From assembly GCA_045536405.1 (NCBI GenBank), contig JAZSNM010000025.1:23664-87663 (forward strand): a stretch of 64,000 nt of DNA, in the 5' to 3' direction. The translations under genes and the position numbers were made by a program. This document shows positions 1,534 to 51,249 of this stretch, in pieces (positions within the stretch are counted from its first letter, which is position 1; the number at the start of each line of letters is the position of its first letter). The notes under the pieces were generated by a model. That model did not search any database, was not told the origin of the DNA, and saw only the letters and a list, made by a program, of their open reading frames with translations. Source of the stretch: Christensenellaceae bacterium (GTDB lineage: Bacteria > Bacillota > Clostridia > Christensenellales > Borkfalkiaceae).

Positions 1534-2667
1534 TTAACGTTTACCCCCTTCGAATATTTTATCTAAAACTTCTTTTACGGCAAAACCCATAAATAAAAAG
1601 CCTAATGAGTTAGGGTGACTTTCGCCAGCCAAACAAAACTCTCTTGCGTCAAGAGGGAACATACTTCTGCCATCAATAAAATATACGTTGTTATCGCCTT
1701 GACTTTTAGCATACTCAATAGTATCAAGTATAATTTGCGTTCTCTCGTTCCCTTCTTTACACTCAACTTCATATTCTCTAAAAGCAGTTGGACGGGACAT
1801 AAAAATTATAGGTGTATTTGGTTGCACTTCTCTAAATCTTTTATATAAAGGTAAATGCGTTGCCCTTAAATATTCCGCCGTTGGTGCGTTATGGTCATAA
1901 TCACAAACAAAAACTGAACAATCTTCACTTGCTAAATAATCAACGACACCTGGCTCTGCTTTAGCACTTCCCGACATTGCAAACGTTTTATAGTCTATTC
2001 TATTTAATTTACAAACAACTGCTTGATAAGCATTGTCCGCCCTATTTGCCGAACCGCCTTGCGTAATAGACGAACCATAGTAAAGCACGGGTTTAATATC
2101 TTTATATGGATTATAAGGTTTTACCATTCTATCTTCGTCAATGTAAACGGTTAATTCATCAACGCAACTATACGTAGGGAAATATAAAACGTAATTTCTA
2201 ACGTCATTACCTTTTAAGTAACACGAAACTTCATAAGTTGGTTCAAATAAAGGCTCGGTAATACAATCGCCAAACAAGTGAGACGCTAAAACTTCTTCTC
2301 CCGTACTTAAAACTTCAACTAACGTAAAATAAGAAGTTGCTAAAATAGACATTTCAGGCGTACGACAAAATGCGTGCATTTTAACCTTTAATTTAAGCCT
2401 TGTTGAGTCGGTTGAAAACGCCAATCTAACACCTGAAGTACACATATTACCCCAATGAATACTTGCTTTTTTTCTATCTGGCTCATCCATTTTGTCAATA
2501 TCATTTTTACGCATTTTATAAAATCCATAGCCTTTTTCGTATTTAGCCCCGAATAAAGAAAAATTAGAATTTGGAATTTTATATTCTTTGAAATTGTTAT
2601 TTGATACGCTATACGTAGCAAAATTCTTATCAAGATCTTCAATTTTTACTTTCTTGCTTGACATCAT
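1534..2667 (-). CDS. SGNH/GDSL-family hydrolase (paralog of 410..1531)
   Basis: 377-aa ORF with YYGSSITQGG and GESHPNS motifs. It has the same two-domain layout as the downstream gene and sits 2 nt from it. Confidence 0.8.
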   Translation of the reverse strand: MMSSKKVKIEDLDKNFATYSVSNNNFKEYKIPNSNFSLFGAKYEKGYGFYKMRKNDIDKMDEPDRKKASIHWGNMCTSGVRLAFSTDSTRLKLKVKMHAFCRTPEMSILATSYFTLVEVLSTGEEVLASHLFGDCITEPLFEPTYEVSCYLKGNDVRNYVLYFPTYSCVDELTVYIDEDRMVKPYNPYKDIKPVLYYGSSITQGGSANRADNAYQAVVCKLNRIDYKTFAMSGSAKAEPGVVDYLASEDCSVFVCDYDHNAPTAEYLRATHLPLYKRFREVQPNTPIIFMSRPTAFREYEVECKEGNERTQIILDTIEYAKSQGDNNVYFIDGRSMFPLDAREFCLAGESHPNSLGFLFMGFAVKEVLDKIFEGGKR

Positions 2668-3280
2668 TTACTCCCTTTTTTTGTTTATTTTTAGTTGGTT
2701 TTTTAATAAAGCCAACGAAACAACTAACTATTCCTATAATAAATATAAGTATTACTAACGACCATAAAATAAATTCATCTTTTAAAAAACGACCTACCAT
2801 TAAAGCAACGCCAAAACTTATAAAAAATATAGCAACTATTAAGCCCCATACGGAATATTTAGAAGCGTCGCCTCTCTCGTAATAATAGGCTCTAAAAACT
2901 TCGATACTACCTCTTAACCAAAATACAAAACCTATTATTGAGCCTGCATTGCTTATTTTTATTAAATTAAATTGAGCAAGTATACAACCAATTAACACTA
3001 ATATTAAAGTTGTAAACTCTAAAACTATTAACGCTTTTATAACCTTTTTATTAGGGCTAACTAATTTTTTAAATAAATAAAACGCCAAATATAGCCCAAG
3101 AAGTAACGCTATTACCGTTTTAATTATATTTCCACCCCAAGAAGCAAAAAAAACGTCCACTTTATTTTTTGCCCAAATAGGCATAAGCATTACCCCAAAC
3201 GCAATGGCAAGTATGCCAAAAATTACGTATAAGAAAAATAATTTACTCTTTTTAGTATTTAAAATTTTAGATAATTTCAT
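2639..3280 (-). CDS. Polytopic membrane protein, unknown function
   Basis: 213-aa ORF with about 6 hydrophobic segments and a Lys-rich C-terminal tail. It overlaps the next gene by 29 nt. Confidence 0.55.
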   Translation of the reverse strand: MKLSKILNTKKSKLFFLYVIFGILAIAFGVMLMPIWAKNKVDVFFASWGGNIIKTVIALLLGLYLAFYLFKKLVSPNKKVIKALIVLEFTTLILVLIGCILAQFNLIKISNAGSIIGFVFWLRGSIEVFRAYYYERGDASKYSVWGLIVAIFFISFGVALMVGRFLKDEFILWSLVILIFIIGIVSCFVGFIKKPTKNKQKKGVNDVKQESKN

Positions 3281-5329: not shown

Positions 5330-5416
5330 GCGGACATGGCGGAATTGGCAGACGCATAAGACTAAGGATCTTATGAGGGTTACTTCGTGCAGGTTCAAGT
5401 CCTGTTGTCCGCACCA
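5330..5416 (+). tRNA. tRNA-Leu, anticodon read as AAG, class II (long variable arm), CCA encoded
   Basis: Hand fold: acceptor GCGGACA/TGTCCGC, 3-bp D stem GCG/CGC, anticodon stem TAAGA/TCTTA with loop CTAAGGA, long variable arm, T stem GCAGG/CCTGT with loop TTCAAGT, then ACCA. Confidence 0.9.
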
Positions 5417-5419
5417 AAA
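5392..5419 (+). repeat. attL core (3' part of tRNA-Leu)
   Basis: GGTTCAAGTCCTGTTGTCCGCACCAAAA is identical to 18949-18976. Confidence 0.9.
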
Positions 5420-5551: not shown

Positions 5552-6781
5552 TCAATAATTCAGTTTTAATGCTAATTTTTGCTGATATTCCATTGAAAAA
5601 TGCGTGTAAACTAATGACGTTGTATTGCCTGCAAACGTGTGGCCAGTCCATAAACACACAATTTCATTTTCAATACCACACTCACGGCACCGTGTAGTAA
5701 AAGTATGACGTAGTTCGTGAGTATGGTGCGTTGGAAGAATTGTTTTTAATTTTTTGCCACTTTTCGTTACGCACTTTAAAAAAGGAAATTCGTTTTCCGG
5801 ATTTAAAGATTTTAACAATTCTTTTAGTTTAGGAAATATCGGCACTATTCTATCGGCGCCGTTTACTGTATCTTTAACTTTTGTAGTTCTAATTTTAACA
5901 GTGTTTTGTTCCCAGTTAATATCAGATAGCCTAAACTTAGCGCACTCAGACATTCTTGCTCCGCTATACAGCATAAAAAGAATCGCTTGTTCGTAGTGGT
6001 CATCTTTAATTTTTTCGACTAATAATTGCTCTTCCTTTATAGTTAAGGCTGAGCCTTTTTTTCTATAATGCTTTGGAATAGAAACGCCTTGCATTATATC
6101 TGATTTTACAATTCCTAAACTTAAGGCAATTTTAAACATACCGTTTAAATAACACTTAACTTCTTCAGCAGTTCTGCCTTTCCCCTGGCTTAATAAATTC
6201 GTTAAAAGTTCCTGAATTACTAACGGTGTTACGTCTAAAATTTGCAAACTTCCTATTTTTTGAATAACGTTCACTTTCACAACGTTTTTTAAATTCCTAT
6301 AGGAATTTTCTTTTAGTTCAAATTTACGGTATTTTTCTAAATACAGTTCACACGTTTCGGCAACCGTTTTACCTTTTTTTACAATTTTACCTTTTTTGTA
6401 TAAAGAGTTAATCTCTTTAAGAAAAATGCGAAACTTTGATTGAGCAATCTCAAGCGTTGTTCCGCAAAAACTTTTGTCATAGCCAAATTTACGAAATCTA
6501 ATTTCGATACTACCATTTGGCTTAATTCTTTTTTTACCATCTTTAAGTGAAAACATTTCATAATCTCCTTTTGTTGTTGGAAATTTTAATTTGTCTTCTC
6601 CCGTATTTCCAGTATTGCCTGCTGCATCATAAGATGCAGAAGGGGTTTCATTGCTTGAAAATGGTTGTTCTTTCGATAGTTCACCGTAAAGTGCGCCACT
6701 AAAACAAGCAAAGGCTTTAAGAGTTTCCCTAAGGGCTAACTCTATTTTGTTTAATGATTCCATAAAAAATTTCTTTTGCAT
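5552..6781 (-). CDS. int: Tyrosine-type site-specific integrase
   Basis: The C-terminal catalytic region contains ...SGARMSE..., HTHELRHTFTTR and ...LVYTHF (R..HxxR..Y pattern). The start is set at the ATG at 6779-6781 (MQKKFF), which is preceded by GGAGGTG. The ORF track extends it to 6802. Confidence 0.85.
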   Translation of the reverse strand: MQKKFFMESLNKIELALRETLKAFACFSGALYGELSKEQPFSSNETPSASYDAAGNTGNTGEDKLKFPTTKGDYEMFSLKDGKKRIKPNGSIEIRFRKFGYDKSFCGTTLEIAQSKFRIFLKEINSLYKKGKIVKKGKTVAETCELYLEKYRKFELKENSYRNLKNVVKVNVIQKIGSLQILDVTPLVIQELLTNLLSQGKGRTAEEVKCYLNGMFKIALSLGIVKSDIMQGVSIPKHYRKKGSALTIKEEQLLVEKIKDDHYEQAILFMLYSGARMSECAKFRLSDINWEQNTVKIRTTKVKDTVNGADRIVPIFPKLKELLKSLNPENEFPFLKCVTKSGKKLKTILPTHHTHELRHTFTTRCRECGIENEIVCLWTGHTFAGNTTSLVYTHFSMEYQQKLALKLNY

Positions 6782-6881
6782 AATTGCACCTCCAACGTGC
6801 AATTATACTAAAAATTATTACTTATAACTTAATAGTGTTTTTACTAAAATTCGTGTGAGAATTTTAGTACGTAAAACATTA

Positions 6882-7124
6882 TTATTTGTTGATTTTATTT
6901 CGTTGCATATTCAATCTTTGTTTTTCAACTTCTAATCTTTCTCTTTCGATTTTAACCATCTTTTTTAATGAGTTTTTAATTGACCAAACAAAAAATGGTA
7001 ATAAGATAATGGCTAAAGTTCTTAAAATGTCAATTAAAGCAACTCCACCAGCAGCGGCAAAAATGCCGGCTAACGCACCATCAATAGATTCACTATTTTC
7101 AGCAAGTAAGTTAAATAAATTCAT
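6882..7124 (-). CDS. Small two-TM membrane protein with charged coiled C-terminus
   Basis: 80-aa ORF co-oriented with int and the repressor. It has two hydrophobic segments followed by ERERLEVEKQRL. Function is unknown. Confidence 0.45.
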   Translation of the reverse strand: MNLFNLLAENSESIDGALAGIFAAAGGVALIDILRTLAIILLPFFVWSIKNSLKKMVKIERERLEVEKQRLNMQRNKINK

Positions 7125-7181
7125 AATACACCTCTTTAATAATTTTTATTTTTTAAATATCTTGAAATACGATATTTTTAA

Positions 7182-7514
7182 TCAATGAGCGAGAGCATAA
7201 ATAAAAGTTTGGGCTTTAATTTTATTTATTTCGTCAAGTAAACGGTATTCACTTAAAAGTTTTGCTTCATCTTCTTTAAGTTGAAGTTCGGCGCCACTTT
7301 TAACAATGCCAAAGTCATCTTCACGACCTAACAAGTAGTCTATTGTGCAGTCTAATATTTCGGCGAGTTTATACAAATTAGTTAAGTCTGGTTCGTTTTG
7401 GCCATTAAGCCAACGGCTAATTGTTTGTTGTGTTGTACTCATTTTGCTTGCTATATATTGTTGAGTTAAACCTTTTTCTATCATTAAATTTCTAAAATTA
7501 ATTGCAAATTTCAT
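7182..7514 (-). CDS. XRE/CI-like HTH repressor
   Basis: The N-terminal HTH reads GLTQQYIASKMSTTQQTISRWLNG. It is divergent from the rightward gene block. Confidence 0.8.
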   Translation of the reverse strand: MKFAINFRNLMIEKGLTQQYIASKMSTTQQTISRWLNGQNEPDLTNLYKLAEILDCTIDYLLGREDDFGIVKSGAELQLKEDEAKLLSEYRLLDEINKIKAQTFIYALAH

Positions 7515-7617: not shown

Positions 7618-7727
7618 TATTTCCCTGTAATTGCAATTATCAACTAAATTTACTTAAAGAATCGGACCAAAGGCAATAAAAACAGGGTAATGCTTTTGGT
7701 CCGTATTCATTTAAGGGGAACAATAAA

Positions 7728-8027
7728 ATGGAAGATAAAGAAAAGCAAATTGAAGAAAAACTTATGGAATTGCGACTTGATAAGCAAGAACTTATGAACG
7801 AAATAAGCGAGAAAAACAATAAGATTGCATTACTTGAAGAAACGATTGAGTGCATAAAGTTTAATGTTGATTTTACACGCAAGGAAACGGCAAATAAGTT
7901 TTATGATAAAGTAATGAGTTTTATTGGTTCAAATCAAAAGTTTTGGATAGTTGATGATGAACCTATAACTGTTATTGTCGTTGATAAATTATTTGATTTT
8001 ATGATAAAAACAAAAAAACAATTTTAA
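7728..8027 (+). CDS. Hypothetical coiled-coil protein (first rightward gene)
   Basis: 99-aa ORF with RBS AAGGGGA upstream. It is chosen over the antisense ORF 7640..7882, which has a low-complexity composition. Confidence 0.5.
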   Translation: MEDKEKQIEEKLMELRLDKQELMNEISEKNNKIALLEETIECIKFNVDFTRKETANKFYDKVMSFIGSNQKFWIVDDEPITVIVVDKLFDFMIKTKKQF

Positions 8028-8081
8028 TAAGTATTTATTTTCCAGTCGGCTGGAAAAATTACAATAAAAGAGAGGTTAAAA

Positions 8082-9638: not shown

Positions 9639-9903
9639 AGTTGCTATAAAAAGACCGGCACAACCCTTAGAAGTTTGCAAAACGTTAAACAACGTAGATA
9701 ATTTTTGTAATATTTTACAGGCTTTAAGTTTTGTTGAGCAATATTGTATTTTTGGTAACGTAATTGTTTTTTACAACAACGAAGTGCCGATAACTAAGAG
9801 AATCTATATTTTTACCTCGAGTTCGCCTGTTGGAGAGCCTACAAACATTACTGATGGAGACATTGAAAAAGTTAACGCTTATTGTGAGTGTATCAGGGGG
9901 TAA
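9619..9903 (+). CDS. Hypothetical protein
   Basis: 94-aa ORF overlapping the previous one by 20 nt. Confidence 0.4.
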   Translation: MDKTIIKVAIKRPAQPLEVCKTLNNVDNFCNILQALSFVEQYCIFGNVIVFYNNEVPITKRIYIFTSSSPVGEPTNITDGDIEKVNAYCECIRG

Positions 9904-9907
9904 TTAT

Positions 9908-10234
9908 ATGTTTAAAAAGGTTAACAAATTATGGATTAACACATTATCAAGTCTATGTGAATTTCGTGAGTGTGATGACGGTAGTTTGCAAATTTTTTAT
10001 TATAACCGTGAAGAGACCGAAGTTCAACTTACGTTAAATAAATACGGTAAATTAGATTATTTAATTAGTCCAAACATACTAGAGAAGAAAATTCAAATGG
10101 TTATTACTATAAGAAGAACTTCAGAGCATTACTATCAAATAATAGCGTTAACTAATAAAAGTTCGCAAATATATACGGCAAAAGGTTATGAAGGTATAAA
10201 TAGAACTCTTAACAATATTTATTACAACTATTAG
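9908..10234 (+). CDS. Hypothetical protein
   Basis: The start is moved to the ATG at 9908 (MFKKVN), which is preceded by AGGGGG. The track start at 9830 would overlap the previous ORF. Confidence 0.45.
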   Translation: MFKKVNKLWINTLSSLCEFRECDDGSLQIFYYNREETEVQLTLNKYGKLDYLISPNILEKKIQMVITIRRTSEHYYQIIALTNKSSQIYTAKGYEGINRTLNNIYYNY

Positions 10235-10266
10235 TTTATTACTGCTTTTTAAGGAGGCTTTAAAAT

Positions 10267-11484
10267 ATGAAAAAAATTGTATCATTATTTTTAGTAATAA
10301 TACTTATTATTGCTGGCTATTTTGCTTACACCTATTGTTCTAAAAACTGGGACAAGTGGTTTAACAGCAAAAACGATGAAATAGTTCAGCCGGGAACTGA
10401 CACGCCGGAAACTGACACGCCAGGAACACCGGACACGCCGGAAACTGATGCGCCGGAAATTTTTATTAAAGAAAACGTTATTGAAAGTTTTTTAACGCCG
10501 GAAACCGTTGCGTGTGCTTATTACTACAACACTCAAACGGAATATAACGCTGAAACAGGCGAAGGTAACGTTATTTACAAAAAAGACCTTTTTGGCCAAT
10601 ATCTAGATGCTAATAATAACGTGGTTAATGAAGATGGTTACATAATAGACAATGAAGGCAAAGTAACTACTGTAAAATCTTCAAGAGTTGTTGAACGTTA
10701 CGTTAACGTTAACTCAAAATACACTCAAAATCCTTCTGCGCAATGGCATAGTAACGTGACGGATAACAATAATGAAACTCGTAAAGGCGTTATATCTTGT
10801 CAAGCAATCGATACATACTTTAATAATTTCTACATAAGAAGTAGTATTAGAACGCAAAAATTTTACAAGAAAGGACCATTAAATGTTGTTGACGACCCAT
10901 CATGGGATTTCATAAGCGTGTGGTTAATGATTGATGGGCCTGAGGGGGAAACAACGACAATATATAGGAATATGACGTATTACCCTGAACAAGTTCCAAA
11001 TAATACTTGGTATGAATTGAAAATAACCAAACAACACTATGCAAATCATCCATATAAGGAAGGGGAAGCAAATTATTCTATTTACCCTTACTATGATTTC
11101 TCTTATGATAGAGACACAAATCCAATGCCTTTAATATCTCTTGGCAATGCGCCAGTTAATAAAGACGTTACTATATATTTTGACCAAATTTCGTATGAAA
11201 AAGAGTTAAATATTAACGTAGATAACGATACTACAAACGGTACATGCACTATTACTGCAGATATTCCTGGCATTGAAGATTATAAAATTTCGTATGAAGT
11301 TCAAGATATGTTAGGCAATACGCTCTACACTTACAATTATTTTAACGTGACTGAAAGTGCAGATTATAAAGTTATAGTAACTTGCGATTACACTTACACC
11401 TACATAAATAATGAAGGTAAAACTGCTGTAGCGAGTAATACAATAACAAAAAGTAAAGTTTTTACTTTGACTAAAGATGAATAA
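10267..11484 (+). CDS. N-terminally membrane-anchored protein with TDTPE-repeat linker
   Basis: 405 aa. The N-terminal TM is IVSLFLVIILIIAGYFAY. It is followed by tandem TDTPETDTPGTPDTPETDAPE (15-nt DNA repeats around 10391-10455). Confidence 0.6.
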   Translation: MKKIVSLFLVIILIIAGYFAYTYCSKNWDKWFNSKNDEIVQPGTDTPETDTPGTPDTPETDAPEIFIKENVIESFLTPETVACAYYYNTQTEYNAETGEGNVIYKKDLFGQYLDANNNVVNEDGYIIDNEGKVTTVKSSRVVERYVNVNSKYTQNPSAQWHSNVTDNNNETRKGVISCQAIDTYFNNFYIRSSIRTQKFYKKGPLNVVDDPSWDFISVWLMIDGPEGETTTIYRNMTYYPEQVPNNTWYELKITKQHYANHPYKEGEANYSIYPYYDFSYDRDTNPMPLISLGNAPVNKDVTIYFDQISYEKELNINVDNDTTNGTCTITADIPGIEDYKISYEVQDMLGNTLYTYNYFNVTESADYKVIVTCDYTYTYINNEGKTAVASNTITKSKVFTLTKDE

Positions 11485-11495
11485 GAGGTGATATT

Positions 11496-11945
11496 ATGGA
11501 TTATAAAAAAATTTTAGGTTTAGTTTTAGTTGTAGTTTTAATAGTAGGTGTAACGCTTGGAATAGTATTTGGCGTTAAAGGTTGCAATAATAACACTTCC
11601 GGTGAAATAGCAACTCAATCAAGTGTTTCGTTTGATGACACTCAATCTACTTCTAATGCTTATATAAGAGCCTGGGCTGTTAGCAAAGATGAATTAACTA
11701 AAATAACATATCAAATTGATACGTTAGATGAAGTTAGTTTTTCAACTAAATTAAAAGGCGCAGTTGATGAAGACTGGAAATATTACGATAAAGATTTTAA
11801 AAAATTAAAATATATTGACTCTGGAGATAAACTAATAGATATTTCTAATTTAAATGAAGGCAAGCACACTATATCTATCTATATATATAATGAAGATGAT
11901 GAGTGTGAGTGTATTTACGAAAGCATTTTTAGAGTTAAAAAATAG
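11496..11945 (+). CDS. N-terminally membrane-anchored small protein
   Basis: 149 aa with TM ILGLVLVVVLIVGVTLGIVFGV and RBS AGAGGTG. Confidence 0.55.
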   Translation: MDYKKILGLVLVVVLIVGVTLGIVFGVKGCNNNTSGEIATQSSVSFDDTQSTSNAYIRAWAVSKDELTKITYQIDTLDEVSFSTKLKGAVDEDWKYYDKDFKKLKYIDSGDKLIDISNLNEGKHTISIYIYNEDDECECIYESIFRVKK

Positions 11946-11952
11946 GTAGATT

Positions 11953-14900
11953 ATGAATAATAAGATAATAACCTTTAAAAATAAATTGATATTTATATTG
12001 ACAACAATAGCCCTACTTTGTTTAGGGCTTTTTAGCATTTCGATAAACGTCAATACCGTAAACGGCGCAACAACTCTACCAAGCGCAAGCGGAGACTGGT
12101 GCGTCTCGAACGGCATTAGTTTTGATAAAGATGATAGGTTTCGACTAGAAAGTGTTGAGGTTAATGTAGATCAATATCGCACTGCTGGCTTTATAGATTG
12201 TCTTGTATATCTAGATGAAGATATTCAATTTTCTATCTATTCTGAGTTGGGAGAATTAGACCCCCTACGTACCATTACAGTTGTCACCACTGATATAGCT
12301 TATTATTACAACTTTAAAGTAGATGATATTTATTTAGCTGGTAAAGATGGTCTCGAAGAGGATTTACTTTTTTATTCTGATGCTTACATCGAGAAAGAAC
12401 CTAGTAATGCGTATTATGATAGATTTATGTTTTACAATGGAGGGAATTTAGATGGTTCCAACTATGCACAAATTGAATACATTCCTTATAATTCACAAAA
12501 TTATTACATATTCTCACTGCTAGTTTTTACAGGTCCTTGTATACCTCAAGGAACAATAGATACTCTATATTGCAAAATCGCCGGCAAAACTGACGTAAAA
12601 ACAATAAATATAGATAGAGAAATTAATAATATTTTAACAACGTCTACTGATAGAGACAAATTGACTACTGCTCAAAAAATTAAAGGCGTTTATACTAATG
12701 CCTCAACGGTTCCTGTTACAATCAAGTATAAAACTATTAAAGAAGGTGCTTTCGAAGTGACCGATGAGACGGAAGTAGTTGAGGTCGACCCGCTTTATAT
12801 ATATAATGAAAATTATATTGTTGAGCAAGTTAAAGCAACTCTCGGATTTTCAAATTTTAATGAGGAATTTGACTGTGTATATACTAAAAACATTATTGAA
12901 ACAGGACTTACAAACACTTTAGACAAAAAAATAAGACAAGAAGTTAATATCGATGACCCTTATTCGTATATGGTTATAGATAGTGACGGCGCTGGTATTG
13001 AGGGCGCTACATTAACGGTAAATTATAATAAATTTCAGTACAAAGATTTAAACGTTCGAATAATGACTAATAGCACTGACCCGGAAGTGCTTCAAAATTT
13101 TGTAGCGCATTATTACACAACAAAAGTAACAGCTTCAGACGAAGAATTCACCTTGACTTTTAATTATGCGGAAATTCAAGAGCAATTTAACACAACTTTA
13201 AACTGGTTATTTAACATAAGGGAGTATATGAGTACGGATGCAGGTAAAAACTGCTTACAGGTTAAAGGTGAAAGTGATAGCATTAAAGTTAACGTGTATG
13301 AAGATAAGTTTACGGTAACGTTTAACGGCTCGGATGAAGACAAGCTTAAAAATCTATACATAAGTTTAGTTTTACCCATAGTGGAAGATGAAAAAGTTGA
13401 CGTTAGAATAATATACAAATATATAACTAGCAATTCTGACTTTAGTTTAAATATTGAAGATAGAGTAATAGAAGATAATGATATTTGGTATACCGACTCT
13501 CTTGCTTATATTAACTTACAAACAATTATGAGTCAGTATGGGTCAACGATAACACAAGGTTGTAATCCAGAAGTTTTAAACGGTAATAAAGTTTATGAGC
13601 CGACCGGTGTTATATTATTAACTGAAGACAAAATTGAAGGCGAAAGAAAAGTATACACTTATAAAATAACGTACGATATCGAGTCTATATTTTTAGTTAC
13701 AACAACGTTTCAAAACAATGAAGTTTTAGAAAAAAGATACGTAACGTTAAGCGAAACTACTAATATTTATTCAGGTGCTTATTTTGTAGATGCAAACGCA
13801 ATACCTAAAGAATATCGTGTAAAAACAGTTAATATTCCTCAATCATTAGACGGTATTAGATACGTTAACACTAAAATGCAAGAAGGCACTAAAGGTTTTT
13901 ACGGCGAATTATATTACACTCTTGCCGTTTCAAAAAATTCCGGCGTAGTTATTCCGGTAGAGATAGTTTTAATTGATACCTGGCATTTGACTATTAACTA
14001 TATGAGAGAGTACTGGTATGAAAAGAACGGCGCTTTAACACGTTCACCGTTTGCTATAAAAAGCAAATTTGAAGGTGAAGTTAAAATTAAAGATTATGAA
14101 GCGGAATCACCTCATTATTTAACTAAAGAAGATTATAAAAAAATATTAGGTTTAGATTACTTAACGATTTGCGATAAAGTGGACGTTATGACAATTCAAA
14201 CTAATGGTGCTTATGGCGTTCACGAAGTTTGGTTTGACTACACGCAAACAAACGTTAAGTGTATGAATTATGACGGTGAAAATCCTCAAAACCCGCAAAA
14301 AGGAAGTTTTGAAGTCAAAGTTCCTTTAACTAGTTATGCTGAATGGTGCAATTCGTTCGGCGAAAACTGGTCAATACTCTATTTGAACAAGCCAGATAAT
14401 ATTTATTTTAAATATACTAATTCAATAGATAAAAATAAATCAGAGGCTGAAAATCGTGCGCTTTTATATGGTTTCTTTACGGTTGCAGTTTTCGAACAAC
14501 AAATATCTGATTTAAACTATTTATTCCAGCAAAATACTTCAAACGGTTGTGTTACTGCATTTACCTCTCTTAACGTTCAAGGCAGTAAACTCTATGAATT
14601 TTTTGGCAAAAAAGCTGAAGGTAGCGCCTTAGGTTCAGTCTTAAGCCGTGTAGGTATGGCATTATGCGAATTTATTAATCCAGAGAATAAAATGTACTAC
14701 TCATACTTTTTATATTTAGATTGCACGTCTGATTTACCGTATTTAGCTTTAAACGGCGCTGATAGTTATGATGATGAAGATAGCGCTATTGTAAATAAAG
14801 GTGAAGATATTAAAGATGAGTTAGAAGATACATTTGGCTCTGGCTGGGAAAAGTTTAAAAAGTGGTTTGGCGAAGAAGTTTGGGATGCCTGGCTTAAATA

Positions 14901-14979
14901 TTTTGTTTTTATTGCATTAGGATTGATATTATTGTCGTTAGTTCTAAAAATAGTAATTAAGATATTTTCTATTAAATAA
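11953..14979 (+). CDS. Large secreted protein with C-terminal TM anchor (candidate spike/adsorption protein)
   Basis: 1008 aa. The N-terminal signal-like segment is LIFILTTIALLCLGLFSISINVNTVNGA. The C-terminal TM is YFVFIALGLILLSLVLKIVIKIF. I recognise no enzymatic motif. Confidence 0.6.
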   Translation: MNNKIITFKNKLIFILTTIALLCLGLFSISINVNTVNGATTLPSASGDWCVSNGISFDKDDRFRLESVEVNVDQYRTAGFIDCLVYLDEDIQFSIYSELGELDPLRTITVVTTDIAYYYNFKVDDIYLAGKDGLEEDLLFYSDAYIEKEPSNAYYDRFMFYNGGNLDGSNYAQIEYIPYNSQNYYIFSLLVFTGPCIPQGTIDTLYCKIAGKTDVKTINIDREINNILTTSTDRDKLTTAQKIKGVYTNASTVPVTIKYKTIKEGAFEVTDETEVVEVDPLYIYNENYIVEQVKATLGFSNFNEEFDCVYTKNIIETGLTNTLDKKIRQEVNIDDPYSYMVIDSDGAGIEGATLTVNYNKFQYKDLNVRIMTNSTDPEVLQNFVAHYYTTKVTASDEEFTLTFNYAEIQEQFNTTLNWLFNIREYMSTDAGKNCLQVKGESDSIKVNVYEDKFTVTFNGSDEDKLKNLYISLVLPIVEDEKVDVRIIYKYITSNSDFSLNIEDRVIEDNDIWYTDSLAYINLQTIMSQYGSTITQGCNPEVLNGNKVYEPTGVILLTEDKIEGERKVYTYKITYDIESIFLVTTTFQNNEVLEKRYVTLSETTNIYSGAYFVDANAIPKEYRVKTVNIPQSLDGIRYVNTKMQEGTKGFYGELYYTLAVSKNSGVVIPVEIVLIDTWHLTINYMREYWYEKNGALTRSPFAIKSKFEGEVKIKDYEAESPHYLTKEDYKKILGLDYLTICDKVDVMTIQTNGAYGVHEVWFDYTQTNVKCMNYDGENPQNPQKGSFEVKVPLTSYAEWCNSFGENWSILYLNKPDNIYFKYTNSIDKNKSEAENRALLYGFFTVAVFEQQISDLNYLFQQNTSNGCVTAFTSLNVQGSKLYEFFGKKAEGSALGSVLSRVGMALCEFINPENKMYYSYFLYLDCTSDLPYLALNGADSYDDEDSAIVNKGEDIKDELEDTFGSGWEKFKKWFGEEVWDAWLKYFVFIALGLILLSLVLKIVIKIFSIK

Positions 14980-14986
14980 TTAAAAT

Positions 14987-16834
14987 ATGAGTTTAAGTAA
15001 CATTTTAAATAAAGTTGAAAATAATAAAAAAGAAGTAAAGAATTCACCTTCGAATACAAGTGGTAAATTTGAGGGTGAAGGCTTTACTTTTGTTTTAAAA
15101 AAAACTTTAAATCATAATACTTCTAAGGCTGAAAGTATACAAAGAATTAAAGCGGAAAACGAGGCTATCAAAAATTACCTTCAAGAAAAGGAACTAGTCG
15201 AAAAAAATTTAAAACGTACTGAGACTAATAATTTTTTAAAATTTCGTACAGGTCGAAGGTATATCAATAAATTTGGACCTAACAAAAATCTCCCGGTAAT
15301 AATTAAAGATTATTTTGCGCCGGAATTTGAATTAAATCAAAAGCAACGTGAATATGTAGAAAATACTATTGATAATGATGATATTCGACTTGAAACTGAA
15401 GACGTCATTGTATCAAATAACCCTCTAGGCTTAAACAAATATTTGTTTTTCAATGCTGTAGATAGATGCGCTAACGGGTTAATATACTACAGCGTACCGT
15501 TTTTGTTTAGTTTTTTAGCAATAATTCTTAATTTTAATTTAAACAATTTTTTCGAAAATTTAATAACGGCAATTATTTTATTGTCTTTTGTTTTAATGGT
15601 TAGAAAAAATTTTAAAAGCGAAGAAAAAGCAATTATTAAATTGCTATATCTTATTCTATCCTTATTTTTAGTTGTTTTTATAGCATATATAGTCTACGAA
15701 GTATCTCCAACGACTTACGACAAAATAGATTTAACGTTTACTATTAAACTATTCTTCTTTGGCTTCGGCGTTTATTATTTCGGTAAATTTTACGTGTTAT
15801 TTATTAAAATGTATCGTCAAGATTGCAATCCAGATATCGGTAACGTCGTTTCGTGTAATTATGGCGCTCCAGGAAGTGGAAAGACTTCAAACGCAGTTCA
15901 AGAGGCGTACGTTTTAGCTTTAATTAAATGGCGCCAACTTCAAGCTGACTTTATGGACGTTCACTCGAGGGAAAAAGAAATTTTAAAAAGGAATAATCCT
16001 AAAGAGCTTTTAGATAGATACGAAATAATAGAATCTTATAAATTTTATATTATGCGCCCTTGTATTCCTTGCTTGTGGTCAAATTTAGAAATTTACGACT
16101 CTAAAGGTAGGCGTTCTCACGAGGTCGAAATTGACCATATACGAGGACTTAAGAGATTGCCTTTATATTCTGTTGTATTATTCGATGAATTAGGCGCTGT
16201 TTTAAAGTCACAGTTAGGTTTTGAAAAAACTGAAAACTATGATTTTAGTGACATGTTTAGATTAGGTAGACAGTTTATAAAATGGACGGTAATTTGTTGC
16301 GAGCAAGACCCTTCAAATATCTATATCGATTGTAGGCGTGTAATGGGCAAGAATAGAGGGTTTTTGGGTCAAGAATGGCACAATAAACCAGTCTTTTTAT
16401 TAGGTATTTATAAATTTTTAAATTTATTAAGAACTGAAACGTGCGATAAAAAAGTTAAAAGAAAAACTGCTTATGCTAAATTTTTAAATATACTTGGTAA
16501 TTTTGTATATTCGATAGGTTTTCGAATTCAATATTTAACAAGTATGGGGAATACACAAACAGGTATTACCGGCAAGCAAATTTCAGTTAATGGTGAAGTC
16601 TTTTCAAAACTAACTTATAGAATAACGCCAGCAAATATGATTGTAGACTATGATGATAGAGAGTATCGCTGGCAATACCCTTCAAGATTTGATAAACGCA
16701 TTAATGCTGAACTTTGTGGCGTTGGCCGTTTAGGTGAACGAGTTGTTGGATTTAAAAGACAATTTGTATCGAGTACTACTTTATTAGATGAAAAACGCTA
16801 TGCGCAAGACTACTACATAAAAAAAATTGCGTAA
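14987..16834 (+). CDS. Membrane-embedded P-loop NTPase, Zot/pI-like (alternative: FtsK-like translocase)
   Basis: 615 aa. About 4-5 TM segments lie between roughly aa 160 and 285. Walker A is NYGAPGSGKTS and Walker B is VVLFDELG. Confidence 0.6.
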   Translation: MSLSNILNKVENNKKEVKNSPSNTSGKFEGEGFTFVLKKTLNHNTSKAESIQRIKAENEAIKNYLQEKELVEKNLKRTETNNFLKFRTGRRYINKFGPNKNLPVIIKDYFAPEFELNQKQREYVENTIDNDDIRLETEDVIVSNNPLGLNKYLFFNAVDRCANGLIYYSVPFLFSFLAIILNFNLNNFFENLITAIILLSFVLMVRKNFKSEEKAIIKLLYLILSLFLVVFIAYIVYEVSPTTYDKIDLTFTIKLFFFGFGVYYFGKFYVLFIKMYRQDCNPDIGNVVSCNYGAPGSGKTSNAVQEAYVLALIKWRQLQADFMDVHSREKEILKRNNPKELLDRYEIIESYKFYIMRPCIPCLWSNLEIYDSKGRRSHEVEIDHIRGLKRLPLYSVVLFDELGAVLKSQLGFEKTENYDFSDMFRLGRQFIKWTVICCEQDPSNIYIDCRRVMGKNRGFLGQEWHNKPVFLLGIYKFLNLLRTETCDKKVKRKTAYAKFLNILGNFVYSIGFRIQYLTSMGNTQTGITGKQISVNGEVFSKLTYRITPANMIVDYDDREYRWQYPSRFDKRINAELCGVGRLGERVVGFKRQFVSSTTLLDEKRYAQDYYIKKIA

Positions 16835-16844
16835 AGAAATTAAC

Positions 16845-16888
16845 GTGCAAATTTATATATAAGTGCGTTTCTATATATCAATTTGCAC
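16845..16888 (+). terminator. AT-rich inverted repeat after the ATPase gene (terminator or origin-like hairpin)
   Basis: GTGCAAATTTATATATA pairs with TATATATCAATTTGCAC. Confidence 0.4.
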
Positions 16889-17033
16889 GGTAATTTTAGC
16901 AATTTTTTTATGATAATATAAACACAACTACGCTAATAAAAGTAACTATTATAATATAAACAAAATTCCATTTTAATTTATAAAAAATTTACGGTACGCA
17001 GTATAGGAAATTTTTTATTCGGGCTTTCAATTT

Positions 17034-17444
17034 ATGATAAATAATTTAGATATTTCAATTTTTGATAAACGTTTTAAGCAAATTAGACCGGCAAAATTGC
17101 TGTTAGATATGTTAGTTTATTTATACTGTCTAAAAGACAGTCCTTTTAAGTATGCTGAAAACACGTTAAAGATTAGTGAGTTAAATTTAATCGAGGCAAT
17201 GAGTGAAGTCGGCGTTAATGAGCTAACAAAGAGTCAACTTCAATCTAAGGAACGTAGGCTCCGCTGGTGGAGAACTCGCCTCGAGCTCGAAGGCGCTATT
17301 AAGTACAAGCAAAGTAACGTTAGTCTATATATGATTAATCCGTTATACTACTTTAACGGAACGGATGCAGAGTTTAAAAAGGCTAAAAATAGGTGGAATT
17401 CATTTGATTGTAAGCATACACCTTACTATTTTAATGAAATTTAA
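17034..17444 (+). CDS. RepL-like winged-helix protein (tentative)
   Basis: 136 aa. The pattern LLLDMLVYLY...LYMINPLYYFNGTD resembles the Firmicute RepL pattern I recall. There is no clear RBS at the listed start. Confidence 0.35.
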   Translation: MINNLDISIFDKRFKQIRPAKLLLDMLVYLYCLKDSPFKYAENTLKISELNLIEAMSEVGVNELTKSQLQSKERRLRWWRTRLELEGAIKYKQSNVSLYMINPLYYFNGTDAEFKKAKNRWNSFDCKHTPYYFNEI

Positions 17445-17457
17445 CAAGGAGCGATTT

Positions 17458-17799
17458 ATGGGAAGAAGAAAAAGATACATAAAAGGTAAAGTTTATTTTA
17501 CTACTGATAAATTACTAGTTGGTGGAAAAGGAAAGACTCGTAGAGTTGTATCAATGGGAAATGATAAAAGTAATATGGAAGTAAGACGTATATTTTCTTT
17601 ACATGATAAAAACGGTAATATAAGAGAACGTCTTATTCCTATTGAAAAATATAAAGATATACCTAAACCAAGTGGAGTTGAAAAGAAAACTTTTCGCAAA
17701 ACTGTTAATGGAAAACCTATACAAGAAAAGTATTTAGGTAAAACAAATACAAGGCTTAATAAATGGGATATGTCAAAAATAATTAACAATAAAAAATGA
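17458..17799 (+). CDS. Small highly basic protein (possible DNA-binding)
   Basis: The start is set at the ATG at 17458 (MGRRKRYIKGK) after AAGGAG. About 113 aa, very Lys/Arg-rich. Confidence 0.5.
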   Translation: MGRRKRYIKGKVYFTTDKLLVGGKGKTRRVVSMGNDKSNMEVRRIFSLHDKNGNIRERLIPIEKYKDIPKPSGVEKKTFRKTVNGKPIQEKYLGKTNTRLNKWDMSKIINNKK

Positions 17800-17928
17800 G
17801 TGGTAATAGTAAATACTATTACCACACTTGAAATAATTTATTTAATTATTTCGGTCGGAAATACCCGACAAATAAATTATATTAAATTTTTAAAAAATTG
17901 TCAACTAAAAATTATAAGGTAAATTATT

Positions 17929-18171
17929 ATGGTATACTATCATTTTCAATTGCCGGACAAATATATATCAACTTATGGACTGAACGTAGGTCAAATTAAA
18001 ACTTTTGAAGGGCATAGAGATATTATAGGTGCATGTATCGAGCGCACGTCAATCAATAAATATAAGGTTGTGGTGTTGTATAAAAAGAATCAACTACTAC
18101 ATACACAGGCATTTAGCATGCGTGATGCTTTTAATATTATTAAAAATTGCTATATAAATACTAATATTTAA
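17929..18171 (+). CDS. Hypothetical protein
   Basis: 80-aa ORF followed by hairpins at 18181-18206 and 18210-18230. Confidence 0.45.
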   Translation: MVYYHFQLPDKYISTYGLNVGQIKTFEGHRDIIGACIERTSINKYKVVVLYKKNQLLHTQAFSMRDAFNIIKNCYINTNI

Positions 18172-18209
18172 AATTTAAACTCTCACAATGCGTTTTAGTG
18201 AGAGTATTT

Positions 18210-18230
18210 CACCGTACACGGTGATTTTTC
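18210..18230 (+). terminator. Intrinsic terminator
   Basis: TCACCG-taca-CGGTGA followed by TTTTT. Confidence 0.6.
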
Positions 18231-18239
18231 AAATACAAT

Positions 18240-18770
18240 TTAATAATACGATGCGGTCATTCTCCTTTTAACCTGGCATCGCTAAATAATCAGGTTTGTT
18301 GTGGTTGCCCGGCTAGTGAGGGAGACTTAAAATGTGGTGATAAGACGTAACAATGCAGTCCTTCTGATATTTCGGAAGTAAAAGAACCAACGTGGAAGGC
18401 GTTGTAAAAGAAGTTTCAGGCGGTATATGGCTCGCCACCATGTACTATTGGTAGCCCGCTGAAAAATCGTTGTGCCAAGGGGACGGGGAATGGCACATTT
18501 TTTAAAAACGATTTAGTAGGAAAGGGCGCAGTCTGCCCTTTTGGCAACCTGCAAAGTTGATTTTTTCTATATGTGCTTTAAAAATATTAACTTTTCAATT
18601 ATTATTCTTAACGTTAAAGCAGTAGCAGTTCGGGTTGATATGTTCGTAAAGCACACTCACCTCTTGCGTACGCTTTATGAATATATCAATGCGAATTCTC
18701 ACATAAACAGCCTGCGCAGTCAGGCACAATTAAGGTGAAGTTTGCATTTTTTTATTCACCGATTTTTTTA
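18240..18770 (+). other. ORF-free GC-enriched nested-helix block of about 530 nt ending in a terminator (candidate large ncRNA or ssDNA origin)
   Basis: Line 18301-18360 counts 28/60 G+C, against 8/60 at 17881-17940. Nested stems include AATCGTT/AACGATT enclosing TGTGCCA/TGGCACA, AAGGGC/GCCCTT and CGATGC/GCATCG. The hairpin GGTGAA/TTCACC followed by a T-run lies at about 18734-18770. Confidence 0.4.
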
Positions 18771-18882
18771 TATAAACAGCGCAAACGTTGTTATAGTCTT
18801 TTTTTTATAAAGTTATTAACAATTTACTTAAAAAACGACTTAAAATACACTGCCACGTTTAAAAATGCTTAATATCAATATA

Positions 18883-18948: not shown

Positions 18949-18976
18949 GGTTCAAGTCCTGTTGTCCGCACCAAAA
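18949..18976 (+). repeat. attR core (duplicate of the tRNA-Leu 3' end)
   Basis: Identical to 5392-5419. The flanking bases differ (T at 18948 versus A at 5391). Confidence 0.9.
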
Positions 18977-50703: not shown

Positions 50704-51249
50704 TTATCTTAATAGTAAAAGTGTCATTGCGATGCTTTGCGCAAATAGTAGTATAGGCGTAGCCCAAAACATAAACTTTCTAAAACCGCCTTCCACTTGC
50801 ATTTCTTCGCGCTGTTTTTGAATTTCTTTTGCAGTTGTTTTGAGTTCTTCCTTAATCTCTTTCACACTTTCATCCACCGCTTTTTTAGCGTAGGCTTGCA
50901 CGTCATTTACTGAACGAGTAATCTCGTTTTTTATGGTTTGACTTATTTCCGTTTTGAACTGACGTTCCTCCCTCGCTACTTCCCGAAACTCGTCCACCGT
51001 TGCCGTTACTAATCGAGTCATTCTTCTCATCTCGTATTCGTTGTTCTCTTTTAGCGATTTCACTTCGTCCGTCAAGCCCTTGACGAGCGTATTCTGATTC
51101 TTGATTAAGCCGTTGCAGTTCACGCTCGATTTCGCCAATGCTTCTCGAAGTAGTTGGTTGTCCGTCATATCCTTGTACGCATCCGTACGTTTCTCTAATT
51201 CCGACAACGGAGTTGCTTGTTCCCCCGTATCTATTCTTGTTAATGCCAT
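50704..51249 (-). CDS. Coiled-coil protein with C-terminal TM anchor (overlaps the relaxase 3' end in another frame)
   Basis: 181-aa ORF of protein-like composition ending in FMFWATPILLFAQSIAMTLLLL. Its real start may be an internal Met. Confidence 0.45.
   Translation of the reverse strand: MALTRIDTGEQATPLSELEKRTDAYKDMTDNQLLREALAKSSVNCNGLIKNQNTLVKGLTDEVKSLKENNEYEMRRMTRLVTATVDEFREVAREERQFKTEISQTIKNEITRSVNDVQAYAKKAVDESVKEIKEELKTTAKEIQKQREEMQVEGGFRKFMFWATPILLFAQSIAMTLLLLR

What the first reader, a model, noticed from the sequence alone, without database searches (positions are those of the whole stretch)
14987..16834. P-loop ATPase with Zot/pI-like motifs but an inverted domain order (TM bundle first)
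Walker A NYGAPGSGKTS resembles what I remember of CTX Zot (GAPGSYKTS). Walker B VVLFDELG resembles the pI/Zot xxDECG box. However, the ATPase is preceded by about 290 aa containing 4-5 TM helices, rather than being followed by a single TM. One reading is a pVI/Ace-like membrane module fused to a pI-like motor. The alternative is an FtsK/TcpA-like DNA translocase (TM N-terminus plus ATPase) that could move dsDNA on its own, as in actinomycete AICEs. Either would be unusual in this context.
Basis: partly seen in the sequence, partly recalled or inferred. Interest (0 to 1): 0.65.

Follow-up and report, generated by a model that had tools for sequence, protein, structure and literature searches.

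The report
Membrane-anchored pI/Zot-like ATPase in prophage-like element
The gene encodes a true but very divergent relative of the filamentous-phage assembly ATPase (pI/Zot), anchored by four membrane helices placed before the motor. It sits in a 13.6-kb integrated, capsid-gene-less element of a gut Clostridia bacterium that belongs to an undescribed family of such elements.

Summary
ORF 14987-16834 (+) encodes 615 aa with four TM helices (aa 162-280) followed by Walker A (293-301) and Walker B (396-403), all conserved in 68 homologues.

The ATPase core is a real pI/Zot homologue:
- Pfam Zot is just above its cutoff.
- hhalign against M13, Pf1, B5 and bajarodino pI/Zot gives E=2e-6, and E=7.7e-11 for the short-form relatives.
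- Foldseek hits Zot 2R2A and inovirus Zot models.
- There is no FtsK_SpoIIIE signal and no similarity to pVI.

"TM first" holds across the whole ~243-member superfamily. It is not unprecedented: it occurs in some annotated inovirus Zots and, shown here, in ORF3 of plasmavirus L2.

The gene lies in a 13.56-kb element integrated at tRNA-Leu with a perfect 28-bp att repeat. The element carries an integrase, a repressor, three membrane or secreted proteins, this ATPase and a RepL-like gene. It has no capsid, terminase or lysis genes and no conserved small coat protein. Relatives occur only in gut Christensenellaceae and Clostridia MAGs and are almost absent from phage, plasmid and IMG/VR collections.

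Most likely the protein is the assembly and export motor of a non-lytic, capsid-less virus-like element. Whether the particle is filamentous or plasmavirus-like is unresolved. I class it as a new variant of a known kind.

The parts
14987..16834 (+). Gene for the 615-aa membrane-anchored pI/Zot-like ATPase. It starts 7 nt after the stop of the upstream 1008-aa gene.
14987..15469 (+). N-terminal cytoplasmic region, aa 1-161. Residues 1-110 are variable, basic and of low confidence. Residues 111-161 are conserved (N145, R151 and Y152 nearly invariant).
15470..15826 (+). Four-helix transmembrane bundle, aa 162-280, with conserved polar residues Y167, P171 and N191.
15848..16546 (+). P-loop ATPase core, aa 288-520. 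Walker A is at 15863-15889 and Walker B at 16172-16195. Also holds invariant E439-Q440-D441 and R450-R451.
16547..16831 (+). C-terminal region, aa 521-615, conserved across both long and short forms of the superfamily. It contains no TM helix.
11953..14979 (+). 1008-aa protein with an N-terminal signal-like helix and a C-terminal TM anchor, conserved just upstream of the ATPase in 14 related loci. Candidate adsorption or spike protein.
11496..11945 (+). 149-aa protein with an N-terminal TM helix, conserved in 17 related loci.
10267..11484 (+). 405-aa N-terminally anchored protein with a T-P-E-T-D repeat linker. It is not conserved between elements, so it is a variable surface protein.
17034..17444 (+). 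136-aa RepL-like winged-helix protein, conserved downstream of the ATPase in 21 loci. The L001 homologue hits Pfam RepL at 25.1 bits against a 20.3 cutoff.
16844..16889 (.). Inverted repeat CGTGCAAATT / AATTTGCACG followed by a T-run, just after the ATPase stop. It is a terminator or operator-like site. Direct repeats at 16909-16927 and 16947-16965 follow it.
5552..6802 (-). Tyrosine integrase of the element.
7182..7514 (-). HTH_3 (cI-like) repressor.
5392..5419 (+). attL: a 28-nt perfect direct repeat, the 3' end of tRNA-Leu(aag) at 5330-5416.
18949..18976 (+). attR: the second copy of the 28-nt repeat. The element is therefore about 13.56 kb.
18225..18780 (+). Conserved structured non-coding region of the element, with 116 predicted pairs of which 31 are compensatory. 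Possible ncRNA, origin or packaging signal.

Best explanation
The protein is the membrane-embedded morphogenesis and export ATPase of a 13.6-kb temperate, non-lytic, capsid-gene-less virus-like element integrated at tRNA-Leu in a gut Christensenellaceae/Clostridia genome.

Shown:
- Its cytoplasmic domain is a divergent homologue of the filamentous-phage assembly ATPase pI/Zot (FtsK-HerA superfamily).
- It is tethered by an N-in/C-in four-helix bundle.
- It is the last gene of a conserved block: a 149-aa TM protein, a ~1000-aa signal-plus-anchor protein, then the ATPase.

Inferred, by analogy with pI:
- The protein oligomerises in the cytoplasmic membrane.
- The TM bundle forms or organises the assembly and exit site. 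No secretin partner is needed or encoded in a host that is presumably monoderm.
- ATP hydrolysis drives loading of the membrane-inserted structural proteins onto the element's DNA and its passage out of the cell without lysis.

Particle form is unresolved. I lean slightly toward inovirus-type extrusion (about 0.35) over plasmavirus-type budding (about 0.2). Nothing here implies toxin activity.
For: Homology to pI/Zot:
- Pfam Zot is the only family above cutoff, and PHROG 'Zot-like' also hits.
- hhalign of the family against M13 pI, Pf1 orf424, B5 Orf8 and bajarodino Zot gives Prob 89%, E=2e-6 over 160 columns.
- The short-form relatives give Prob 97%, E=7.7e-11.
- A relative 33% identical to the query matches an annotated inovirus Zot by tblastn at 5e-6.
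- Foldseek: Zot 2R2A prob 1.0, TMt 0.50; HerA is the top PDB hit. Inovirus Zot models score 3.5e-5 to 1e-4 and L2 ORF3 scores 5.7e-6.

Element and context:
- tRNA, perfect 28-bp att repeat, integrase and repressor.
- Conserved synteny across 14-28 loci.
- The upstream gene has pIII-like topology, a signal sequence plus a C-terminal anchor, in the same order as M13 III-(VI)-I and Pf1.
- No capsid, terminase, lysis, T4SS or defence hits.
- Many relatives lie on 10-14.7-kb contigs. The one examined (L001, 13.56 kb) begins inside a tRNA 3' end, consistent with a break at att.
Against: - No conserved 30-90-aa single-TM coat protein. The only coat-like ORF, 6882-7124 on the minus strand, is absent from close relatives.
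- No HUH/RCR Rep and no ssDNA-binding protein. The replication gene is RepL-like.
- The protein has four TMDs, not the 1-2 of accepted pI proteins.
- The Pfam score is marginal.
- No excised circle, virion or VLP data could be obtained. The contigs were too fragmentary and no RNA runs exist.
- The upstream 1008-aa protein could not be modelled (pLDDT 30).
- No experiment links any member of this family to particle production.
Confidence: 0.55

Rival explanations
1. Plasmavirus-like reading. The element makes enveloped, pleomorphic dsDNA particles like Acholeplasma virus L2, and the ATPase is the counterpart of L2 ORF3, loading or condensing dsDNA into buds studded with the large membrane proteins.
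For: - L2 ORF3 has the same TM-first, P-loop layout.
- It is the second-best viral fold hit, E=5.7e-6.
- The L2 ORF3 family is itself pI-like, E=1.1e-5, and links to the short forms at E=3.5e-4.
- L2 is similar in size (12 kb) and has low GC, a one-strand operon and large signal-peptide envelope proteins upstream of the ATPase. L2-like prophages are tRNA-integrated.
- The element has no coat protein and several large membrane proteins.
Against: - The direct profile match between the query family and the L2 ORF3 family is weak (E=0.013).
- No other core protein matches any L2 ORF.
- No DnaA-box origins are seen.
- Known plasmaviruses infect wall-less hosts. Clostridia are presumably walled (background knowledge), and no peptidoglycan hydrolase is encoded.
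Confidence: 0.2
2. Conjugation-like reading. A single membrane-anchored hexameric translocase moves the excised double-stranded element directly into a neighbouring cell, as TraB does in actinomycete AICEs, with the large surface proteins acting as adhesins.
For: - N-terminal TMs followed by a C-terminal motor is also the topology of FtsK, TraB and TcpA.
- pI/Zot and FtsK belong to one superfamily, and HerA and FtsK appear among the fold hits.
- The element size and its integrase, plasmid-type Rep and regulator content resemble AICEs.
- Relatives carry Flg_new cell-surface repeats.
- These elements are almost absent from viral collections.
Against: - No FtsK_SpoIIIE Pfam hit at E<=10.
- FtsK 2IUS has TMt 0.16 against 0.50 for Zot.
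- No relaxase, T4SS or coupling-protein genes in the element.
- No plasmid record carries a homologue.
- No pI/Zot-family ATPase is known to mediate conjugation (background knowledge).
Confidence: 0.12
3. Fusion-origin reading. The N-terminal TM module is a pVI-like (or other small phage membrane protein) gene fused to a short pI-like ATPase.
For: - In M13 and Pf1 the order is III-VI-I, with multi-TM pVI directly before pI. Here the pIII-like gene directly abuts the ATPase.
- The short-form element L036 has a separate 76-aa two-TM gene immediately upstream of a 2-TM ATPase.
Against: - hhalign of the family against pVI of M13, Pf1 and B5, and against the L036 76-aa protein, finds nothing.
- Short forms already carry 1-2 TMs of their own.
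- Sequence comparison of TM segments has little power.
Confidence: 0.1
4. Non-mobility function. The ATPase secretes or inserts the co-encoded surface proteins, or acts as a toxin or exclusion factor for the host, and is not involved in DNA export.
For: - The function of the neighbouring membrane proteins is unknown.
- A weak PHROG hit links the 149-aa protein to a Sie-like superinfection exclusion protein (E=1e-3).
Against: - The gene is strictly linked to integrase, att and Rep modules across the family.
- No defence-system match.
- The Zot toxin activity of CTX phage is a property of a C-terminal region that is not present here (background knowledge).
Confidence: 0.05

Closest known systems
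Inovirus morphogenesis protein pI / Zot (Pfam PF05707; M13 gene I protein, Pf1 orf424, Propionibacterium phage B5 Orf8, N. meningitidis Zot N-domain PDB 2R2A)
   Same: - Homologous P-loop core with Walker A, Walker B (DE.G) and the post-Walker-B W..I...Q....I...R block in register.
- Similar fold.
- Membrane-anchored.
- Encoded just after a large signal-plus-anchor protein in a small temperate non-lytic element.
   Different: - Four TM helices plus a 160-aa extension before the motor, instead of one TM and a periplasmic domain after it.
- No pIV, pVI, coat, ssDNA-binding or RCR Rep genes nearby.
- The element is 13.6 kb with long genes.
- Sequence similarity is only marginal (21 bits).
pI-like proteins with N-terminal TMDs in metagenomic or Gram-positive-associated Tubulavirales (Roux et al. 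2019 criteria; bajarodino virus 71 Zot, PQ006122)
   Same: - The TM helix precedes Walker A.
- A relative of the query (L031) matches this Zot directly.
- There is no C-terminal periplasmic domain.
   Different: Those have one, or at most two, TMDs, are about 280 aa long, and sit in 5-9-kb genomes with recognisable Rep and small coat genes.
Acholeplasma virus L2 (Plasmaviridae) ORF3, UniProt P42538
   Same: - TM-first P-loop ATPase, with fold match E=5.7e-6.
- Both families relate to pI.
- The host element is about 12 kb, low in GC, temperate and lacks capsid genes, with large envelope-type proteins upstream.
   Different: - L2 ORF3 is 312 aa with about 2 TMs.
- The direct profile match is weak (E=0.013).
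- No other shared proteins.
- The L2 host is wall-less.
FtsK / SpoIIIE / TraB / TcpA DNA translocases
   Same: - N-terminal TM helices followed by a cytoplasmic ASCE ATPase.
- Same FtsK-HerA superfamily, as stated in Roux 2019.
   Different: - No PF01580 match.
- Poor structural overlap, TMt 0.16.
- No gamma/wHTH domain was recognised.
- No conjugation genes in the element.

Membership tests
pI/Zot morphogenesis ATPase (PF05707) | P-loop NTPase with conserved Walker A (GxxGxGK[ST]) and Walker B (hhhhDE) | tested here: met
   aa 293-301 and 396-403. The key residues are invariant in 68 homologues.
pI/Zot morphogenesis ATPase (PF05707) | Significant profile match to Zot/pI and to no other ATPase family | tested here: met
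   - Pfam Zot 21.2 bits against a 20.3 cutoff, the only family above cutoff.
- hhalign against pI references E=2e-6; short-form relatives E=7.7e-11.
- The single-sequence score is marginal.
pI/Zot morphogenesis ATPase (PF05707) | Fold of the Zot N-terminal domain (PDB 2R2A) | tested here: met
   - 2R2A prob 1.0, TMt 0.50, E=8e-3.
- Inovirus Zot models E=3.5e-5 to 1e-4.
- No PDB hit is below 1e-3, and HerA, RAD51 and AAA proteins score similarly.
pI/Zot morphogenesis ATPase (genuine inovirus pI, Roux et al. 2019 criteria) | One or two TMDs, N- or C-terminal | tested here: not met
   The query has four N-terminal TM helices. Short-form relatives have one or a few upstream hydrophobic segments; L036, L038 and P0099 show about two.
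pI/Zot morphogenesis ATPase (genuine inovirus pI, Roux et al. 2019 criteria) | Other inovirus genes in the context (short single-TMD coat proteins, replication initiator) | tested here: not met
   - No conserved short TM ORF.
- No HUH Rep or ssDNA-binding protein.
- A RepL-like initiator is present.
- A distant relative, L031, sits beside a Rep_OBD+S3H Rep.
pI/Zot morphogenesis ATPase | ATP-dependent requirement for virion assembly and extrusion | not testable with these tools
   Needs a Walker A mutant in an inducible lysogen.
FtsK/SpoIIIE/TraB/TcpA translocase | FtsK_SpoIIIE motor domain (PF01580) | tested here: not met
   No hit at E<=10. FtsK 2IUS scores E=2.4e-2, TMt 0.16.
FtsK/SpoIIIE/TraB/TcpA translocase | N-terminal TM helices followed by a cytoplasmic motor | tested here: met
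   This is topology only and is not diagnostic.
FtsK/SpoIIIE/TraB/TcpA translocase | C-terminal sequence-recognition (gamma/wHTH) domain and cognate repeats (KOPS/clt) | tested here: inconclusive
   No HTH family hit in aa 521-615. Repeats were not searched specifically.
Plasmaviridae (L2-like) | ORF3-like TM-first ATPase | tested here: inconclusive
   Fold hit E=5.7e-6. The profile-profile match is only E=0.013; through the short forms it is 3.5e-4.
Plasmaviridae (L2-like) | Homologues of the L2 envelope and other proteins (ORF13, ORF14, ORF1, ORF12) | tested here: not met
   HMMs of the 149-, 1008-, 136- and 226-aa families against all L2 ORFs give no hit.
Plasmaviridae (L2-like) | About 12-kb temperate genome integrated in a tRNA gene, with no capsid genes | tested here: met
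   13.56 kb, tRNA-Leu att. No capsid hits.
Inovirus pVI (as fused N-terminal module) | Sequence similarity of aa 150-285 to pVI | tested here: not met
   hhalign against pVI of M13, Pf1 and B5 finds nothing.

The most novel reading that the evidence does not exclude
These 10-14-kb elements of gut Christensenellaceae and Clostridia are a new family of capsid-less, chronically released viruses. Their only hallmark gene is a TM-first pI-like ATPase. That ATPase, shared with plasmavirus L2 ORF3 and with N-TMD inovirus Zots, would mark an ancient membrane DNA-export module linking Plasmaviridae and Tubulavirales. If so, enveloped or otherwise unconventional particles are exported through the envelope of a walled Firmicute.
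Probability: 0.3. Interest if true: 0.8.

Novelty: new variant of a known kind. Interest (0 to 1): 0.55.

Why it matters
- **Blind spot in virus detection.** pI/Zot is the only hallmark used to find filamentous phages. This family shows the same motor in 10-14-kb integrated elements that lack every other inovirus feature, and phage, plasmid and IMG/VR resources almost completely miss them. It points to a blind spot for non-lytic mobile elements in abundant, health-associated gut Clostridia.
- **Possible homology for Plasmaviridae.** The profile and fold link found here between the pI family and ORF3 of plasmavirus L2 would give Plasmaviridae, so far an orphan family, a first homology to other viruses. 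It also suggests a common membrane-export mechanism that can be tested with a Walker A mutant.

Tried and rejected
- **Direct matches in reference collections.** tblastn of the protein against 50,697 phage records and 72,556 plasmids found nothing.
- **Family profile against PDB sequences.** Nothing significant.
- **L2 ORF1 as counterpart.** It was a candidate because of its size (591 aa), but it has no P-loop and its TMs are C-terminal.
- **Family HMM against all L2 and B5 ORFs.** No hit.
- **Profiles of the other core proteins against L2 and B5.** No hit.
- **pVI and the L036 76-aa protein against the TM module.** Nothing.
- **Excision or empty-site evidence.** Four gut metagenome runs gave only low-depth fragments and no junctions. 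No RNA runs were available.
- **Structure of the 1008-aa protein.** The 3-sequence model had pLDDT 30 and was discarded, and the last fold search was left unused.
- **Other libraries.** NCBIfam and PADLOC gave no hits.
- **DnaA boxes.** At chance level.
- **Rfam.** Only the tRNA was found.
- **Exact-motif scans for the structured element.** None found in metagenome or viral contigs.
- **Literature.** No held paper links Christensenellaceae with inoviruses or L2 ORF3 with Zot. The gut Firmicutes inoviruses of Sugimoto 2021 are 5.6-9.4 kb, carry coat genes, and are different.
Full report
**Observation**

Walker A (GAPGSGKTS) lies at aa 293-301 and Walker B (VVLFDELG) at aa 396-403.

Hydropathy gives four segments between aa 162 and 273 and none after Walker A. 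An AlphaFold2 model built on 68 homologues (mean pLDDT 80.9, pTM 0.71) has four long helices at 162-182, 188-210, 215-239 and 249-280, followed by an alpha/beta domain. Loop charges fit an N-in/C-in topology with the ATPase in the cytoplasm.

The Walker residues and several polar residues inside the TM region (Y167, P171, N191) are invariant across homologues that are only 35-47% identical. The architecture is therefore selected, not a chance run of hydrophobic codons.

**What the ATPase is**

Pfam returns only Zot (PF05707), at 21.2 bits against a gathering score of 20.3, and no FtsK_SpoIIIE hit even at E<=10. PHROGs gives a weak Zot-like hit. Because that is marginal, I tested the homology in four independent ways.

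1. A profile of the family against a small reference alignment (M13 pI, Pf1 orf424, Propionibacterium phage B5 Orf8, bajarodino virus 71 Zot) gives hhalign Prob 89%, E=2e-6 over 160 columns. Walker A, the DE.G Walker B and the 'W..(I/V)...Q....I...R' block are all in register.
2. A profile of the family's shorter relatives gives Prob 97%, E=7.7e-11 against the same references.
3. A relative 33% identical to the query (in L031) hits the annotated Zot of a 5.3-kb Inoviridae genome by tblastn at 5e-6 and itself passes Pfam Zot at 24.5 bits.
4. Foldseek places the Zot N-domain 2R2A (prob 1.0, TMt 0.50) and HerA at the top of the PDB list. FtsK is much lower (TMt 0.16). Several inovirus Zot models and A32-type packaging ATPases lead the viral list.

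The domain is therefore a divergent member of the pI/Zot branch of the FtsK-HerA superfamily, as Roux et al. 2019 describe that branch. It is not an FtsK/TcpA-type motor.

**Domain order**

An exhaustive HMM search of 1.84 billion representative proteins finds only 243 relatives. About a dozen are ~600-aa 'long forms' like the query. The rest are 350-500-aa 'short forms' that align from the last TM helix or two through the ATPase and the C-terminal region. Of the 116 representatives with more than 25 aa before Walker A, 111 have hydrophobic segments upstream and only 10 have any downstream. TM-first is thus ancestral for the whole group.

It is not unique to this group:
- Roux et al. accepted pI-like proteins with 1-2 TMDs at either end.
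- The Zot of bajarodino virus 71 begins with a TM helix.
- ORF3 of plasmavirus L2 has N-terminal hydrophobic helices followed by ALPGGGKS and LILDEF.

The particular features of the long form are its four-helix bundle and its 160-aa cytoplasmic extension. The idea that the bundle is a fused pVI finds no support against pVI of M13, Pf1 or B5, or against a 76-aa two-TM protein encoded just upstream of a short-form ATPase.

**Context**

A tRNA-Leu(aag) at 5330-5416 and a perfect 28-nt direct repeat of its 3' end at 5392-5419 and 18949-18976 bound a 13.56-kb insertion. The insertion carries:
- a tyrosine integrase and a cI-like repressor on the minus strand;
- a plus-strand block ending in a variable 405-aa anchored protein, a 149-aa TM protein, a 1008-aa protein with a signal-like N-terminus and a C-terminal anchor, and the ATPase, which starts 7 nt after the preceding stop;
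- after a hairpin, a 136-aa protein whose homologue passes Pfam RepL.

Nothing matches capsid, terminase, portal, lysis, T4SS, relaxase or defence families.

The 149-aa, ~1000-aa, ATPase and RepL-like genes, together with integrase and repressor, recur in 12-28 related loci. Short-form elements have the same plan.

All host assignments are gut Christensenellaceae or uncultured Clostridia MAGs from humans and ruminants. Many relatives sit on 10-14.7-kb contigs. The one examined, L001 (13.56 kb), begins inside a tRNA 3' end, consistent with a break at att.

The family is absent from the phage and plasmid collections, and IMG/VR has a single distant relative.

**Which kind of element**

*For an inovirus-like reading:*
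- the hallmark ATPase;
- the order 'pIII-like protein, then ATPase', as in M13 and Pf1;
- a small temperate genome with no lysis genes;
- an HUH-type Rep (Rep_OBD) with an S3 helicase beside a distant relative.

*Against it:*
- There is no conserved short single-TM coat protein. The one coat-like ORF, 6882-7124 on the minus strand, is deleted in close relatives.
- There is no ssDNA-binding protein or RCR Rep.
- The genes are long.
- Known gut Firmicutes inoviruses are 5.6-9.4 kb and carry coat genes.

*For a plasmavirus-like reading:*
- L2 ORF3 is the second-best viral fold hit (E=5.7e-6).
- The L2 ORF3 family is itself pI-like (Prob 81.5%, E=1.1e-5) and links to the short forms at E=3.5e-4.
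- L2 shares the size, tRNA-type integration, one-strand operon and large envelope proteins upstream of the ATPase.

*Against it:*
- The direct profile match is weak (E=0.013).
- No other protein is shared.
- Plasmaviruses are known only from wall-less hosts.

A TraB-like conjugative role fits the topology and the plasmid-type Rep, but not the family assignment or the absence of any transfer genes.

**Mechanism**

*Shown:*
- a cytoplasmic pI-type P-loop domain with invariant catalytic residues and conserved arginines (R450, R451);
- a conserved four-helix anchor;
- tight operon linkage to membrane-inserted proteins.

*Inferred by analogy with pI:*
- oligomerisation in the membrane;
- the TM bundle providing the assembly or exit site, with no secretin partner;
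- ATP hydrolysis coupling DNA export to acquisition of the membrane-resident structural proteins, without lysis.

I put 0.55 on this general role. Within it, I put about 0.35 on filament-type extrusion and about 0.2 on plasmavirus-type budding. Conjugation-like translocation gets 0.12. The Zot name implies nothing about toxicity here.

**Novelty**

The protein is a new architectural variant of a known ATPase family, inside a family of elements that I could not find described. It is not categorically new, because N-terminal-TMD pI-like proteins were already recognised. The element family and the L2 link are the more interesting parts.

**Side observations**

- A ~550-nt non-coding stretch at 18225-18780 keeps 69-77% nucleotide identity with elements whose ATPases are only 36-39% identical.
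  - Its consensus fold has 116 pairs, 31 of them compensatory.
  - 95.5% of cells are paired, against 34-44% when partners are slid.
  - 0 of 500 shuffles reach the observed covariation.
  - Many conserved G-U pairs make it specific to the + strand.
  - It matches no Rfam family and is limited to this sub-lineage.
  - Only about three independent lineages support it.
- The window also holds a second, GC-richer mobile region at about 30-53 kb with a serine recombinase and a MobA-type relaxase.

Noticed in passing
L004 (Acholeplasma virus L2, L13696) 2278-3216: L2 ORF3 (P42538) is a TM-first pI/Zot-like ATPase. A profile of 21 relatives against pI references gives Prob 81.5%, E=1.1e-5, and the query model hits it at E=5.7e-6. 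None of the 21 hits Pfam Zot. The 2018 ICTV profile says plasmaviruses share no proteins with other viruses except the integrase.
   Followed up: partly
window 18225-18780 (+): A conserved structured non-coding element lies between the last ORF and attR. It has 116 predicted pairs, 31 with compensatory changes; 95.5% of cells are paired against 34-44% in slid controls. It has no Rfam match and occurs only in the window, L006 and L026-L028. It could be an ncRNA, a replication-primer-like RNA, or ssDNA origin or packaging hairpins.
   Followed up: partly
window 6884-7183 and 7714-8032: These are presence/absence polymorphisms in close relatives in gut metagenomes. The first removes an 80-aa ORF (6882-7124, minus strand) with an acidic N-terminus, a TM helix and a basic tail, the layout of an inovirus coat protein. 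The second removes the 99-aa ORF 7728-8027.
   Followed up: partly
window 10384-10459: A tandem 15-nt repeat encodes a T-P-E-T-D linker in the variable 405-aa anchored protein (D2/D3). A relative in run X1 shows a 15-nt length polymorphism.
   Followed up: no
window 16835-17033: The intergenic region between the ATPase and the RepL-like gene holds a 10-bp inverted repeat (16844-16853 / 16880-16889), a T-run, and two 19-nt direct repeats (16909, 16947). Part of it is conserved in L002, L003, L007 and L026. It is a candidate terminator plus operator or origin.
   Followed up: no
window 17365-17799 (+): A 144-aa ORF overlaps the end of the RepL-like gene. From an internal Met it is strongly basic (MGRRKRY...). 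It is conserved only in L006. It may be a DNA-condensing protein.
   Followed up: no
window ~30000-53000: This block has higher GC (0.37-0.50 against about 0.31). It carries GH31, GFO/IDH/MocA and xylose-isomerase-like genes, plus a large serine recombinase (47836-49611, minus strand) and a MobA/VirD2 relaxase (50903-51973, minus strand). It may be a second, unrelated integrative mobilisable element.
   Followed up: partly
L031 (IMGVR_UViG_3300002469_000208) 9818-18631: This is the only IMG/VR relative. A 440-aa short-form ATPase is followed by a Rep_OBD + S3-helicase Rep and a complete type I restriction-modification system.
   Followed up: no
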